Position numbers and translations under genes: made by a program. The notes beneath the pieces are model-generated. The model saw only the letters and a program-made list of their open reading frames with translations, ran no database searches and was not told the DNA's origin. A DNA stretch of 64,000 nucleotides from Escherichia coli (GTDB taxonomy: Bacteria; Pseudomonadota; Gammaproteobacteria; Enterobacterales; Enterobacteriaceae): NCBI RefSeq assembly GCF_045037415.1, contig NZ_CP173438.1, one strand, 5' to 3'. Below, piece by piece: positions 60,933-63,064 of the stretch (its first letter is position 1; every line of letters starts with the position of its first letter).

Positions 60933-60947
60933 GTAAGCATCTGTCAG

Positions 60948-60980
60948 AAAGGCCAGTCTCAAGCGAGGCTGGCTTTTTTT
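60948..60980 (+). terminator. rpoS intrinsic terminator
   Basis: GGCCAGTCTC-AAGC-GAGGCTGGC followed by TTTTTTTCTTTT. Confidence 0.7.
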
Positions 60981-61102
60981 CTTTTGGTACATGTTGAACT
61001 GTTATCGGATACAGCGTTAAAACTTTATCTGACTGACCAGGGGACGGCACTTTTTAGATGTAGAAGACCGGATAGACGCGTCAGCATCACATTCGGCAAT
61101 CA

Positions 61103-61654
61103 TCATTTTAAGCGCGCAGTAATTGTCGCCACGCGTTCACCATATTTCACGGCTGTATCCAGATCGCCCGTAGGGATTTGCTCTGCACCCGCATCGGCTG
61201 GAGATTGCACCAGCAAACCGACCGAACCGCCCAGATTGTTTACATCTTCCCTGGTTGACGCAAGCACATTGGCAGGAGCCTGACCTAAACTCACCCACAG
61301 ACCGCCATGCTGTGAAGCCAGCGTTTGCAGATAGATCAGCGTAACTTGTTTATCGCCATTCAGGCTGGCGCTGTTGGTGAAACCCCCGAAGACTTTATCC
61401 TGCCATTTACGTGTAAACCACGCTTTGGAACTGGCATCAGCAAATTTCTTGAATTGCCATGGCGCACCGCCCATATAGGTGGGAGCACCGAAGATAATGG
61501 CATCGGCTGCGTCCAGTTTTTCCCACTCCTGCTCAGTGATATTTCCTTCGTTATCAATCGAAATTAAATCTGCATGGGCGCCTTGTGCCACTTTTTCAGC
61601 AACCAGTTTAGTGTGACCATATCCTGAATAATAAACCACAGCTATGTTTTGCAT
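61103..61654 (-). CDS. Flavodoxin-like FMN-dependent NAD(P)H:quinone oxidoreductase family protein (WrbA-like)
   Basis: 183 aa translation with an N-terminal flavodoxin-like FMN-binding signature (VVYYSGYGHT) and an IIFGAPTY motif; not part of the K-12 rpoS-ygbN junction as I recall it. Confidence 0.7.
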   Translation of the reverse strand: MQNIAVVYYSGYGHTKLVAEKVAQGAHADLISIDNEGNITEQEWEKLDAADAIIFGAPTYMGGAPWQFKKFADASSKAWFTRKWQDKVFGGFTNSASLNGDKQVTLIYLQTLASQHGGLWVSLGQAPANVLASTREDVNNLGGSVGLLVQSPADAGAEQIPTGDLDTAVKYGERVATITARLK

Positions 61655-61878
61655 ATAAATATCCTTTTTACTAATGAATGATTTTTTGAGGCAGGTTTTA
61701 AAGATGTGGAGTATTATGCCTTGCAGATATTATTTAAACCATCAAATGATGAACATATTTTTTGAATGAGATAAACATAATATTCGAAGAAAAATGAATC
61801 TCGTAACGTAGTAATATCTAAAATAACAGTCTGTTCAGAGATGCTATAAATCAACAACACATTAATAAAGGACTACGT

Positions 61879-62922
61879 ATGCAAGGCATTAAAATATATA
61901 CAATTCTAGCCTCTTCTCTTATATCTGGTAGTGTTTTTGCTCAAACGGAAATTTCGACTTCAAATTCGTCTACAGTTAATGCAAGTTATGTTGAACCTTC
62001 AGCGGAAAAAATAATATCGCCAAGCGATAAACTCAATAACCTTTTTGAAAGAAATATGTCTCAGCCTTATATTTTACAAAAAATTGGCGAGAGAACTTAT
62101 TATGTTCAACGCTATTTTTATTCCACTACGTTTTATGTCGGAGACAAAGGGGTTTTGCTGTTTGATGCTCCGGAGGGTCGCGGTAAATATTTATTACAGG
62201 CAATTCGTGATGTGACTCCATTACCCGTAACAGCGCTGGTTTATTCTCATTACCATGTGGATCACATTGGCGATAGTCCATTTTGGAACGATGAGGCGAA
62301 GAAAGAAGGCGTGAATCTGCGTATTATTGCCAGTAAAGCCACTGCTGAAAAAATGCAATTTATGAACAGTCGCTTACCCGTCGCCACTCAGGTTTTAAGT
62401 AAAAAAGATGACCAGTTTAAATTTGAAAAGCAGACCATTGAATTACACCGATTTGTTAAAGCAGGACATACCGACGACCATTCTGTATGGTTGCTAAAAC
62501 AGGAAAAAGTAGCTCACAGCCCGGATCTCCTGAATCCTGACCAACTGCCGATGATGGGCTTCGCCGTATCGGATACGTTGGTTTACCATGACAGTAATTT
62601 GCGTCAGGTTGAAATGCTTGACTGGAAATATTTTATTGGCGGGCATGGTAATATTGGTTCACACGATGATTTTAAATTTCAACGCCAGTTTCTTAATGAT
62701 CTTCGGGATACGACAATTAAAGTCAGAAAAGAAGAAAGTTTTGGTAAATTTATGAATAAAACGGCAAATAATCATGCTGATTTTGCGCGAGCCCAGCGCG
62801 AAGCAATTATTAAAAAAGTAACTGAAGTATTACGTCCGAAATATGGCCATATGTATGGCTACGACGCATCTATGCCTGCTAATATCGAAATGGCAATAAG
62901 GTTGGTCGGTTCTTATTACTAA
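61879..62922 (+). CDS. Secreted metallo-beta-lactamase-fold hydrolase (function unknown)
   Basis: 347 aa translation with signal peptide (ILASSLISGSVFA-QT), HxHxDH metal-binding motif (HYHVDHIGD) and later conserved His (AGHTDDH, GGHGNIGSHDD); gene is conspicuously AT-rich. Confidence 0.7.
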   Translation: MQGIKIYTILASSLISGSVFAQTEISTSNSSTVNASYVEPSAEKIISPSDKLNNLFERNMSQPYILQKIGERTYYVQRYFYSTTFYVGDKGVLLFDAPEGRGKYLLQAIRDVTPLPVTALVYSHYHVDHIGDSPFWNDEAKKEGVNLRIIASKATAEKMQFMNSRLPVATQVLSKKDDQFKFEKQTIELHRFVKAGHTDDHSVWLLKQEKVAHSPDLLNPDQLPMMGFAVSDTLVYHDSNLRQVEMLDWKYFIGGHGNIGSHDDFKFQRQFLNDLRDTTIKVRKEESFGKFMNKTANNHADFARAQREAIIKKVTEVLRPKYGHMYGYDASMPANIEMAIRLVGSYY

Positions 62923-62967
62923 GATAAAATCAACTTGCAAGAGACTGTAATTATATTGCAAAGTGAA

Positions 62968-63003
62968 AATTAACCTCGGTAGCGAGATATTACCGAGGTT
63001 AAT
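62968..63003. terminator. Hairpin between the convergent MBL-fold gene and ygbN
   Basis: TAACCTCGGTA-N9-TACCGAGGTTA, an 11 bp perfect stem. Confidence 0.45.
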
Positions 63004-63064
63004 ATTGGCATACATTACACCCTTATCAGGCACTTAAACGATACATCATATCTTATCTGGATTA

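What the first reader, a model, noticed from the sequence alone, without database searches (positions are those of the whole stretch)
60933..63064. Two-gene insertion between rpoS and ygbN: flavodoxin-like quinone reductase and secreted MBL-fold hydrolase
As I recall the K-12 arrangement, rpoS is followed closely by ygbN. Here about 2.1 kb intervenes, carrying a WrbA-like flavodoxin-family gene (minus strand) and a divergently transcribed signal-peptide-bearing metallo-beta-lactamase-fold gene, separated by a 224 bp AT-rich promoter region and closed by an 11 bp-stem hairpin. The rpoS-mutS neighbourhood is known to be polymorphic among enteric bacteria, so this is probably a lineage-specific cassette. 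Its function (for example lactonase, sulfatase or beta-lactam hydrolysis) is unknown.
Basis: partly seen in the sequence, partly recalled or inferred. Interest (0 to 1): 0.5.

Follow-up and report, generated by a model that had tools for sequence, protein, structure and literature searches.

The report
Known B2-specific rpoS–ygbN two-gene cassette
This is the long-known 2.1-kb DNA segment that phylogroup B2 (extraintestinal pathogenic) E. coli carry between rpoS and ygbN; it encodes a flavodoxin-like reductase and an exported metallo-beta-lactamase-fold hydrolase whose substrates nobody has tested, so the finding is real but not new.

Summary
Between rpoS (59940-60932) and ygbN (63065 onward, minus strand) lie a 183-codon flavodoxin-family gene (61103-61654, minus) and a 347-codon MBL-fold gene with a signal peptide (61879-62922, plus). 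A 224-bp intergenic region of 27% GC separates them, and a hairpin follows at 62966-63006. K-12 has only 93 bp at this site.

The segment is in 1042 of 5426 complete E. coli genomes, always as one chromosomal copy. It is already described: the "rpoS-proximal 2.1-kb insertion" with ORFs o183 and o347 (Culham & Wood 2000), also called o454-nlpD "pattern III", a near-exclusive phylogroup B2 marker (Ewers 2014). The published primers give exactly the 816-bp pattern III amplicon in this window.

What I can add:
- o347 is a distant relative of the Vibrio cholerae carbapenemase VarG. It has an HxHxDH..H..D..H metal site and a subclass-B1-like fold, but fails the VarG and B1 family thresholds.
- o183 is about 65% identical to PDB 3d7n, a WrbA-like flavodoxin.
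- The divergent gene pair is conserved as a unit in three other enterobacterial contexts. In one it fills the whole rpoS-mutS gap.
- There are no transposon ends. The right boundary lies inside the last four ygbN codons, which suggests allele replacement by homologous recombination.

The function has not been tested. Novelty: already known.

The parts
59940..60932 (+). rpoS, the left flank. Intact 330 codons, with Glu33.
   Evidence: 985/993 nt identical to MG1655 rpoS, with one amino-acid difference (E33 vs Q33).
60946..60979 (+). rpoS intrinsic terminator hairpin, shared by nearly all E. coli. It is not part of the B2-specific DNA.
   Evidence: 15-pair stem followed by a T run; the first 46-56 nt after rpoS match 5276 of 5426 genomes. 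One search shows the junction alignment.
60990..63076 (.). The B2-specific segment itself (about 2.09 kb), with boundaries set by comparison with K-12 and a pattern IV strain.
   Evidence: sequence shared with other lineages ends after ...GGCTGGCTTTTTTTCTTTTGGT (about 60989) and resumes at CCATACGCACCAGG (63077); 6 of the 8 mismatches in the first 180 nt of ygbN fall in its last 12 nt.
61056..61098 (.). Degenerate REP-like palindrome between the rpoS terminator and the end of o183.
   Evidence: Seen by eye. A clearer REP sits at the equivalent place in pattern IV strain L003. fold: -14.5 kcal/mol, z = -2.2. Weak evidence.
61103..61654 (-). o183: a 183-aa cytoplasmic flavodoxin-fold FMN protein of a WrbA-like subfamily.
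   Evidence: Pfam. NAD(P)H:quinone oxidoreductase models score 70 and 60 bits, below the cut-offs of 141 and 132.5. PDB 3d7n at E = 1.4e-72; a large, conserved proteobacterial family.
61655..61878 (.). 224-bp divergent intergenic region at 27% GC, the presumed site of both promoters.
   Evidence: GC; partly conserved blocks across four orthologous loci; no strong sigma-70 consensus match within it.
61879..61941 (+). Sec-type signal peptide of o347 (residues 1-21, predicted cleavage VFA|Q).
   Evidence: Read directly from the sequence. Family members also carry N-terminal hydrophobic segments. pLDDT is below 60 over residues 1-30.
61879..62922 (+). o347: a 347-aa exported MBL-fold binuclear metallohydrolase of a VarG-related clade, with a C-terminal helical extension.
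   Evidence: VarG family 2.2e-48, 165 bits against a cut-off of 750; near-invariant H124, H126, D128, H129, H197, D216, H256; pLDDT 92.5; structural neighbours.
62966..63006 (.). Hairpin between the converging 3' ends of o347 and ygbN, a probable bidirectional terminator. It replaces the different hairpin found in K-12 and pattern IV strains.
   Evidence: One search lists a minus-strand terminator-like site here.
63065..64000 (-). 3' part of ygbN (o454, a GntP-family transporter), the right flank. The window ends inside the gene. The last four codons (63065-63076) belong to the variant segment.
   Evidence: The window encodes ...WLVI-stop and K-12 encodes ...WAVI-stop, and all four codons differ at the nucleotide level.

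Best explanation
Identity (shown). The segment is the phylogroup-B2 allele of the hypervariable rpoS-ygbN junction. It is the published 'rpoS-proximal 2.1-kb insertion' carrying o183 and o347, also called o454-nlpD pattern III.

How it got there (inferred). It sits at this site through replacement of the DNA between the rpoS terminator and the last codons of ygbN, by homologous recombination in the flanking conserved genes. Transposition or site-specific integration is unlikely. The same gene pair lies directly downstream of rpoS in another, unidentified enteric lineage. The cassette is therefore an old resident of the mutS-rpoS gap in some Enterobacteriaceae. Other E. coli lineages hold the MarR-kpdBCD cassette or nothing at this site.

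What it encodes (inferred from homology and a structure model). There are two divergently transcribed enzymes.
- o183 is a cytoplasmic FMN-binding, flavodoxin-fold NAD(P)H-dependent oxidoreductase of the WrbA-like kind, most likely a quinone or electrophile reductase.
- o347 is a Sec-exported periplasmic hydrolase with a binuclear (probably zinc) site built from HxHxDH, H, D and H. Its core resembles subclass B1 beta-lactamases and it has a three-helix C-terminal extension. Its only characterised relative is VarG of Vibrio cholerae.

Linkage and expression. The pair and its divergent layout are conserved in four genomic contexts, so the two genes probably act as one co-regulated detoxification module for an unidentified xenobiotic or antibiotic-like compound. 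The very AT-rich promoter region makes H-NS silencing under laboratory conditions likely; this rests on general knowledge of H-NS and was not tested.
For: Identity.
- The ORF lengths are exactly 183 and 347 codons.
- Ewers' primers F5/R5 give exactly 816 bp, as published for pattern III in CFT073 (PMC4209514).
- Primers F5/R2 give 3699 bp against the published 3685 bp.
- The segment is in 1042 of 5426 genomes, including known B2 strains UTI89, NU14, 83972 and ATCC 11775.

Not a mobile element.
- There are no terminal inverted or direct repeats.
- There is no mobility gene.
- No plasmid copy exists, and there is always a single chromosomal copy.

Recombinational replacement.
- The right boundary falls in ygbN's last four codons, which keep x-V-I-stop with different nucleotides.
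- Alternative cassettes occupy the same site in other lineages.
- Contig L017 has the order rpoS, o183, o347, mutS. Its cassette is 78% nt identical to the window, its rpoS 89% and its mutS 3' end 81%.

Enzymes.

The pair is conserved in E. coli, L017, Enterobacter sp. kpr-6 (L009) and L021. Both genes are under purifying selection.
Against: - No experiment bears on either enzyme's activity or on expression.
- The two proteins are predicted to sit in different compartments, so direct coupling between them is not obvious.
- More distant relatives of each gene occur without the other. The pairing could simply reflect co-transfer of a small islet.
- In L021 the pair sits next to a P4-type integrase fragment, so in some lineages it may travel on islands.
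- o347 (39% GC) and o183 (50% GC) differ in composition, which is odd for a unit with one history.
- The direction of the event, gain in B2 versus loss elsewhere, cannot be decided from these data.
Confidence: 0.8

Rival explanations
1. The B2 arrangement is ancestral. The o183-o347 pair was already in the mutS-rpoS gap of the E. coli ancestor or an earlier enteric ancestor, and was lost or replaced by MarR-kpdBCD or nothing in the other phylogroups. On this view it is a retained segment, not an insertion.
For: - An unidentified enteric (L017) has the pair immediately downstream of rpoS, with mutS on the other side.
- Cassette divergence (78% nt) is commensurate with the flanking mutS 3' end (81%) and rpoS (89%).
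- L017 shows the same GC asymmetry as E. coli: 0.41 for the MBL gene and 0.50 for the flavodoxin gene.
- The ygbN terminal codons co-vary with the cassette.
- From my own knowledge, B2 is an early-branching phylogroup.
Against: - o347 and the intergenic region are strongly AT-rich (39% and 27% GC) against 50.5% for the window, the classic signature of foreign DNA.
- The scan of one genome per species found no close orthologue in any other Escherichia species representative. This is a weak negative because the cassette varies between strains.
- In kpr-6 and L021 the pair sits in unrelated contexts, which shows it does move.
Confidence: 0.3
2. o347 is a working beta-lactamase or carbapenemase like VarG: a cryptic chromosomal resistance gene of B2 E. 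coli.
For: - The best curated family match is VarG, aligned over nearly the full length (2.2e-48).
- It has the same ligand pattern as VarG, including Asp in place of the B1 cysteine (PMC5595328).
- It has an exported location, as beta-lactamases do.
- Its core superposes on CcrA, GIM-1 and VIM-2 with TM 0.72-0.80 normalised to the target.
- VarG raised the meropenem IC50 320-fold when expressed in E. coli.
Against: - It scores 165 bits against the VarG cut-off of 750, and 50 bits against the B1 cut-off of 200. Identity to VarG-like proteins is only about 28-37%.
- The HxHxDH/H/D/H ligand set is generic for MBL-fold hydrolases such as glyoxalase II, lactonases and sulfatases.
- From my own knowledge, B2 strains without acquired carbapenemases are carbapenem-susceptible. 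The native gene therefore gives no clinical resistance.
- The closest solved structure, 8d2z, is uncharacterised.
Confidence: 0.12
3. o347 hydrolyses a non-beta-lactam substrate in the periplasm, for example an N-acyl homoserine lactone or other lactone, a phosphodiester, or an alkyl or aryl sulfate ester.
For: - The ligand set is the same as in AiiA-type lactonases and glyoxalase II (comparison from my own knowledge).
- There are weak sequence and fold matches to the alkylsulfatases SdsA1, PisA1 and YjcS, which also combine an MBL core with a helical domain.
- Some relatives carry weak Pfam Apyc1 (cyclic-nucleotide phosphodiesterase) hits.
Against: - None of these families matches at a significant or family-level score.
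- o347 lacks the SCP-2 domain of the alkylsulfatases.
- Its own Pfam scan shows no Apyc1 hit.
Confidence: 0.35
4. The segment is a small mobile islet that inserted by transposition or site-specific integration.
For: - In L021 the pair lies next to the N-terminus of a P4-type integrase.
- The pair occurs in four different contexts.
- It has foreign-looking composition.
Against: - There are no inverted or direct terminal repeats.
- The window carries no integrase or transposase and no tRNA at the site.
- There is never a second copy and never a plasmid copy.
- The boundary lies inside conserved coding sequence that keeps its reading frame.
Confidence: 0.07
5. The pair is a split flavodiiron-type redox enzyme, in which an MBL-like di-iron domain works with a flavodoxin domain to reduce O2 or NO.
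For: - Flavodiiron proteins fuse exactly these two folds.
- There are faint hits of o347 to rubredoxin:oxygen oxidoreductase 1e5d (E = 0.37) and of o183 to the flavodiiron protein Flv3, 6h0d (E = 6e-4).
Against: - o347 has a conserved signal peptide while o183 has none, so they would be in different compartments.
- The motif is HxHxDH, not the HxExDH of di-iron sites (motif from my own knowledge).
- The top structural matches are hydrolases.
Confidence: 0.02

Closest known systems
The rpoS-proximal 2.1-kb insertion of ECOR group B2 and uropathogenic E. coli (ORFs o183 and o347; Culham & Wood, J Bacteriol 2000), also called o454-nlpD 'pattern III' (Ewers et al. 2014, PMC4209514)
   Same: It is the same locus with the same two ORF lengths. 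The 816-bp o454-o347 amplicon is identical. The lineage distribution is the same: 19% of complete genomes here, and 249 of 250 B2 strains in Ewers.
   Different: There is no substantive difference. The o454-nlpD amplicon is 3699 bp here against 3685 bp reported for CFT073, a matter of small indels; other strains show 7-nt length differences. The original 2000 paper could not be read and is cited through Ewers 2014.
VarG, the VarR-regulated metallo-beta-lactamase of Vibrio cholerae (NCBIfam NF033574; Lin et al. 2017, PMC5595328)
   Same: Both are exported MBL-fold proteins of about 350-375 aa and align over nearly their full length. Both have the metal-ligand pattern His-His-Asp...His...Asp...His, with Asp where B1 enzymes have Cys.
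   Different: o347 scores 165 bits against the 750-bit family cut-off and is about 28-37% identical to VarG-like proteins. It has no LysR regulator or efflux pump next to it; the divergent neighbour is a flavodoxin instead. Its activity is untested.
Subclass B1 metallo-beta-lactamases (CcrA, GIM-1, VIM-2, BlaB/IND)
   Same: The alpha-beta/beta-alpha core superposes with TM 0.72-0.80 normalised to the target. Both are periplasmic and binuclear.
   Different: Sequence identity is 17-21%. o347 has Asp216 instead of Cys221 and an extra His129 (HxHxDH). It carries about 85 extra C-terminal helical residues. It scores 50 bits against the cut-off of 200.
WrbA (NAD(P)H:quinone oxidoreductase type IV) and the Agrobacterium 'flavodoxin, WrbA-like protein', PDB 3d7n
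   Same: o183 has the flavodoxin-like fold with FMN_red and Flavodoxin Pfam matches. It is about 65% identical to 3d7n over 178 residues (E = 1.4e-72).
   Different: o183 scores below the WrbA equivalog cut-offs (60 and 70 bits against 132.5 and 141) and is about 15 residues shorter than WrbA. 3d7n is itself a structural-genomics entry with no assigned activity.
The MarR(slyA-like)-kpdBCD (hydroxyarylic acid decarboxylase) cassette of pattern I and IV E. coli
   Same: It occupies the same slot immediately downstream of the rpoS terminator. It is likewise lineage-specific and begins with a minus-strand gene followed by a divergent plus-strand unit.
   Different: The genes are unrelated and the cassette is 2.9 kb. 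It shares the ygbN-proximal hairpin with K-12, whereas the B2 cassette brings its own hairpin and its own last four ygbN codons.

Membership tests
o454-nlpD pattern III / B2 2.1-kb rpoS-proximal insertion | An o454-o347 PCR product of 816 bp with primers F5/R5 (specific to pattern III) | tested here: met
   R5 matches at 62602-62623 with 0 mismatches and F5 at 63397-63417 with 1 mismatch, giving exactly 816 bp (sizes from PMC4209514).
o454-nlpD pattern III / B2 2.1-kb rpoS-proximal insertion | An o454-nlpD product of about 3.69 kb carrying two ORFs, o183 and o347, between rpoS and ygbN | tested here: met
   F5/R2 span 59719-63417, which is 3699 bp against the published 3685 bp. The ORFs are 183 and 347 aa.
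o454-nlpD pattern III / B2 2.1-kb rpoS-proximal insertion | Host strain belongs to phylogroup B2 | not testable with these tools
   The Clermont markers (chuA, yjaA, TspE4.C2) are not in the window. Indirectly, the segment is 99.4-100% identical to known B2 strains UTI89, NU14, 83972 and ATCC 11775.
VarG family subclass B1-like MBL (NCBIfam NF033574) | Whole-protein score at or above the curated cut-off of 750 bits | tested here: not met
   165.3 bits, E = 2.2e-48.
VarG family subclass B1-like MBL (NCBIfam NF033574) | Metal ligands H-x-H-x-D ... H ... D ... H, and an N-terminal signal peptide | tested here: met
   H124, H126, D128, (H129), H197, D216 and H256 are nearly invariant in the 32-sequence family alignment. 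The VarG ligands are given in PMC5595328. The signal peptide is seen.
VarG family subclass B1-like MBL (NCBIfam NF033574) | Hydrolysis of carbapenems, penicillins and cephalosporins | not testable with these tools
   This needs an enzyme assay or MIC measurements.
Subclass B1 metallo-beta-lactamase (NF033088) | Score of at least 200 bits, and the Zn2 ligand Cys221 | tested here: not met
   50.4 bits. The equivalent position is Asp216.
Subclass B1 metallo-beta-lactamase (NF033088) | MBL alpha-beta/beta-alpha sandwich fold | tested here: met
   AlphaFold2 model with pLDDT 92.5. Foldseek probability is 1.00 to CcrA, GIM-1 and VIM-2, with TM 0.72-0.80 normalised to the target.
WrbA / NAD(P)H:quinone oxidoreductase type IV (TIGR01755, NF002999) | Score at or above the curated cut-offs of 132.5 and 141 bits | tested here: not met
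   59.9 and 70 bits.
Flavodoxin-like fold FMN reductase superfamily | Pfam FMN_red, Flavodoxin_1/2/5 domains, and a close solved homologue with this fold | tested here: met
   (E = 5e-9 to 5e-7); 3d7n at E = 1.4e-72.
Transposon, IS element or integrative islet | Terminal inverted repeats or a target-site duplication, plus a transposase or integrase gene | tested here: not met
   No flanking repeats. There are only two ORFs with family matches, and neither is a mobility gene.
Anti-phage defence systems (PADLOC) | A match of either protein to a defence-system model | tested here: not met
   No families matched either protein.

The most novel reading that the evidence does not exclude
o347 may be a silent, chromosomally fixed VarG-like carbapenem-hydrolysing metallo-beta-lactamase present in essentially every phylogroup B2 ExPEC, including ST131, ST73 and ST95. 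Its AT-rich promoter would keep it off, for example through H-NS. An upstream IS insertion or promoter mutation could then switch it on. On this reading its conserved flavodoxin partner belongs to the same antibiotic or xenobiotic defence module.
Probability: 0.08. Interest if true: 0.7.

Novelty: already known. Interest (0 to 1): 0.15.

Why it matters
The polymorphism already serves as a PCR marker for highly virulent B2 ExPEC, so re-finding it adds nothing in itself.

Three points are still open and mildly interesting.
1. More than two decades after its description, neither enzyme appears to have been tested. I found no functional study in the searchable literature.
2. The only characterised relative of o347 is a carbapenem-hydrolysing enzyme. 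That makes a simple activity test worthwhile in lineages of great clinical importance.
3. The gene pair is a conserved module. In another enteric lineage it fills the whole mutS-rpoS gap, which bears on whether the B2 state is ancestral or acquired.

Tried and rejected
- Mobile-element origin. I looked for terminal repeats, mobility genes and plasmid copies (only relatives below 32% identity). None were found.
- Defence-system membership. PADLOC returned nothing.
- Split flavodiiron enzyme. Rejected because o347 has a signal peptide and an HxHxDH motif.
- Conserved neighbours of distant o347 relatives that might hint at a substrate. Contexts were a hpa/TctC catabolic cluster (L005), a GIY-YIG gene (L007), a tandem MBL pair (L010) and a divergent LysR gene in a Vibrio (L011). 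They share no theme.
- Donor identification. No homologue lies between 82% and 99% identity. The one-genome-per-species scan found only Enterobacter sp. kpr-6. The organism behind L017 could not be named.
- Sigma-70 promoter scan of the intergenic region. No site was found inside it. The four-way alignment of the region shows only short conserved blocks, which I did not interpret.
- Reading Culham & Wood 2000 directly. The paper is not held.
- Literature search for functional work on c3302-c3304 or on o347/o183. Only Ewers 2014 turned up.
- The first protein search was swamped by near-identical E. coli entries and was uninformative about distant relatives.
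Full report
**1. What is in the sequence**

The window ends with the gene run surE, pcm, nlpD, rpoS (59940-60932, plus strand). Then come a 183-codon ORF on the minus strand (61103-61654) and a 347-codon ORF on the plus strand (61879-62922). The 3' part of ygbN follows on the minus strand, with its stop at 63065.

- The two ORFs are separated by 224 bp of 27% GC.
- Each has an AAGGA ribosome-binding site 8-9 nt upstream of its ATG.
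- Downstream of the 347-codon ORF is a strong hairpin with arms at 62966-62981 and 62991-63006. It folds as a 14-bp stem.
- In K-12 MG1655 rpoS and ygbN are 93 bp apart.

The only correction is that the hairpin stem is a little longer than stated.

**2. It is a real, lineage-specific segment**

The full 2.1 kb is present in 1039 of 5426 complete E. coli genomes. Counting three partial cases, 1042 genomes match. It is always a single chromosomal copy and at least 99% identical in 1040 of them.

The other roughly 4200 genomes match only the first 46-56 nt, which is the rpoS terminator. One partial case, strain AREA_494, is an IS1-associated deletion that runs from inside o183 to pphB. RefSeq annotates the genes as "flavodoxin family protein" and "MBL fold metallo-hydrolase".

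**3. It is already known**

Ewers et al. 2014 (PMC4209514) describe four structures of the o454(ygbN)-nlpD region. Pattern III is found in 249 of 250 B2 strains and in only two others. It carries o183 and o347 and corresponds to the "rpoS-proximal 2.1-kb insertion" of Culham & Wood (J Bacteriol 2000), which was present in all ECOR B2 isolates.

- Their pattern III-specific primer pair F5/R5 matches the window at 63397-63417 and 62602-62623. That gives exactly the published 816 bp.
- F5/R2 gives 3699 bp against the 3685 bp reported for CFT073.
- A 2024 study again found that all pattern III uropathogens were B2 (PMC10885528).
- Ewers et al. state that the roles of o347 and o183 "remain to be investigated".
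- My literature searches found no later functional work.
- The 2000 paper itself is not held.

**4. Boundaries and mode of arrival**

I aligned the window with K-12 and with a pattern IV strain, L003, whose order is rpoS, MarR, kpdBCD, ygbN.

- On the left, sequence common to all lineages runs through the rpoS terminator stem. The window and pattern IV share a further roughly 14 nt (TTTTTTCTTT-GGT) before diverging near 60989.
- On the right, identity resumes only at 63077, which is inside ygbN. The last four codons are CTC GTC ATC TAA in the window and GCG GTA ATT TGA in K-12. They encode LVI-stop and AVI-stop respectively. The rest of ygbN is 95-100% identical to K-12 in 60-nt windows.
- K-12 and pattern IV share a different ygbN-proximal hairpin.

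There are no terminal inverted or direct repeats, no mobility genes, and no plasmid-borne copies. A frame-preserving but nucleotide-divergent gene end is what homologous allele replacement from a diverged relative would leave. It is not what a transposition would leave. This step is inference.

**5. The pair elsewhere**

A scan of one genome per species (100,044 species) found a single related locus, in Enterobacter sp. kpr-6 (L009). It has the same divergent pair in an unrelated neighbourhood. The MBL protein is 74% identical to o347 and the flavodoxin 85% identical to o183.

Following flavodoxin relatives into metagenome assemblies revealed two more versions.

- L017 has the order rpoS, o183, o347, mutS, so the pair fills the whole mutS-rpoS gap. 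Amino-acid identity to E. coli is 81.6% (MBL) and 92.3% (flavodoxin). The cassette is 78% nt identical, rpoS 89%, and the mutS 3' end 81%.
- L021 has the pair next to an adenine-deaminase and nucleoside-transporter cluster and the N-terminal fragment of a P4-type integrase.

Between E. coli and kpr-6, dN is 0.084 (o183) and 0.167 (o347) with dS saturated, so both genes have been under long-term purifying selection.

By contrast, the flavodoxin alone is widespread. It gave 7993 hits below 1e-30, from genera including Mangrovibacter, Pectobacterium, Tatumella and Dickeya. It occurs without the MBL in L014 and L019. More distant MBL relatives occur without a flavodoxin in L005, L007, L010 and L011.

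The two-gene module is therefore a specific, conserved association within one enterobacterial clade. L017 also keeps open the possibility that the B2 arrangement is ancestral rather than an insertion.

**6. o347**

- Pfam gives Lactamase_B at 1.8e-12.
- The best curated family is VarG (NF033574), aligned over residues 30-331. The score is only 165 bits against a cut-off of 750. B1 and B2 beta-lactamase models score 20-51 bits, also far below their cut-offs.
- The family is rare: 66 clusters below 1e-30 among 1.84 billion representatives.
- In a 32-sequence alignment the nearly invariant residues are H124, H126, D128, H129, H197, D216, H256, N258 and G260. This is the HxHxDH/H/D/H binuclear site.
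- VarG has the same pattern, with Asp replacing the B1 cysteine. It hydrolyses carbapenems with kcat/Km of about 1e5 M-1 s-1 and raised the meropenem IC50 320-fold in E. coli (PMC5595328).
- The AlphaFold2 model is confident (pLDDT 92.5, pTM 0.88). Residues 1-30 are disordered, the core is an MBL sandwich, and there are three long C-terminal helices at 262-346.
- The nearest solved structure is an uncharacterised Burkholderia cenocepacia protein, 8d2z, which matches over the full length. B1 enzymes (CcrA, GIM-1, VIM-2, VMB-1) follow, matching the core. Alkylsulfatases match more weakly.
- All AlphaFold-database neighbours are unannotated MBL-fold proteins, from Brevibacillus, Paenibacillus, Methanolobus, Enterovibrio and Shewanella among others.
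- The N-terminus MQGIKIYTILASSLISGSVFA|QTE has the layout of a Sec signal peptide. That layout is conserved in all four orthologues. It has no lipobox cysteine and no twin-arginine motif.

In conclusion, o347 is an exported binuclear metallohydrolase related to, but not a member of, the VarG and B1 families. Its substrate is unknown.

**7. o183**

- It matches the Pfam FMN_red and Flavodoxin families.
- It scores below the cut-offs for WrbA-type quinone oxidoreductase models.
- It is about 65% identical to PDB 3d7n, "Flavodoxin, WrbA-like protein", at E = 1.4e-72. It is more distantly related to WrbA and other NAD(P)H:quinone dehydrogenases, at 1e-9 to 1e-13.
- It has no signal peptide.

The most likely role is a cytoplasmic FMN-dependent NAD(P)H oxidoreductase acting on quinones or other electrophiles.

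**8. How the two fit together**

The predicted compartments differ, so a physical complex is implausible. That rules out, for example, a split flavodiiron enzyme, whose two folds these are. The HxHxDH motif argues the same way, because di-iron sites use HxExDH.

The conserved divergent arrangement suggests shared regulation from the AT-rich intergenic region. A four-way alignment shows only short conserved blocks, and a simple sigma-70 scan finds nothing there.

My best guess is a small xenobiotic or antibiotic detoxification module that is probably silenced by H-NS in the laboratory. That guess rests on general knowledge of AT-rich horizontally acquired DNA, not on a test.

**9. Unexplained**

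In E. coli and L017 the MBL gene is much more AT-rich than the flavodoxin gene (GC 0.39-0.41 against 0.50). In kpr-6 both genes match the host at about 0.54-0.55, and in L021 they are 0.48 and 0.50.

**10. Verdict**

The feature is a published, routinely typed polymorphism, so its novelty is "already known" and its interest is low.

The residual value is threefold:
- the untested enzymology of o347, given its relationship to VarG;
- the conserved pairing of the two genes;
- the rpoS, o183, o347, mutS arrangement found in another enteric lineage.

Noticed in passing
window 49456-49749: An Rfam sok antitoxin RNA (RF01794, 104 bits) is followed by a Hok-like 50-aa ORF ([50 protein letters not shown]). 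It lies between the cysH-like and iap-like ORFs, where K-12 has its type I-E CRISPR-Cas locus.
   Followed up: no
window 7677-8036: A full-length CsrB small RNA (RF00018, 383 bits).
   Followed up: no
window 60036 (rpoS codon 33): rpoS has GAG (Glu33) where MG1655 has CAG (Gln33). This is the only amino-acid difference among 8 nucleotide differences. RefSeq annotates rpoS as frameshifted in strains SK1144 and RM6927, consistent with the known instability of rpoS.
   Followed up: partly
window 63065-63076: The last four codons of ygbN differ from K-12 at every codon (CTC GTC ATC TAA against GCG GTA ATT TGA) but still encode x-Val-Ile-stop. The variant segment therefore reaches into the gene and brought its own ygbN end.
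   Followed up: yes
L017 1-3019 (Logan contig SRR33471182_407364; also L018): An unidentified enteric organism has the order rpoS, o183, o347, mutS, so the pair fills the whole mutS-rpoS gap. It is the closest non-E. coli version of the pair, at 81.6% (MBL) and 92.3% (flavodoxin) amino-acid identity. Its species was not found in the one-genome-per-species collection.
   Followed up: partly
L021 6732-9454: A fourth version of the divergent pair lies beside the N-terminal fragment of a P4-type integrase (arm-binding domain motif). This hints that the pair travels on an island in that lineage.
   Followed up: partly
L013 5104-6636 (E. coli AREA_494, NZ_CP123332.1): An IS1 element joins a truncated o183 to a truncated pphB. 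The deletion removes o347 and the whole ygbN-ygbI block.
   Followed up: no
window 61056-61098 and L003 about 8045-8085: A degenerate REP-like palindrome lies just downstream of the rpoS terminator in the B2 allele. A clearer REP sits at the equivalent place in the pattern IV allele. Both were seen by eye, and the fold is weak (z = -2.2).
   Followed up: no
window 61103-62922 compared with L009 7205-9035: There is a composition mismatch inside the cassette. In E. coli o183 is 50% GC (GC3 0.46) and o347 is 39% GC (GC3 0.33). In Enterobacter sp. kpr-6 both genes are about 54-55% GC. L017 shows the same asymmetry as E. coli. This is unexplained.
   Followed up: partly
L010 5001-7131: In a distant relative's genome (a 4.4-Mb metagenome-assembled contig), two paralogous members of this MBL family sit in tandem.
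   Followed up: no
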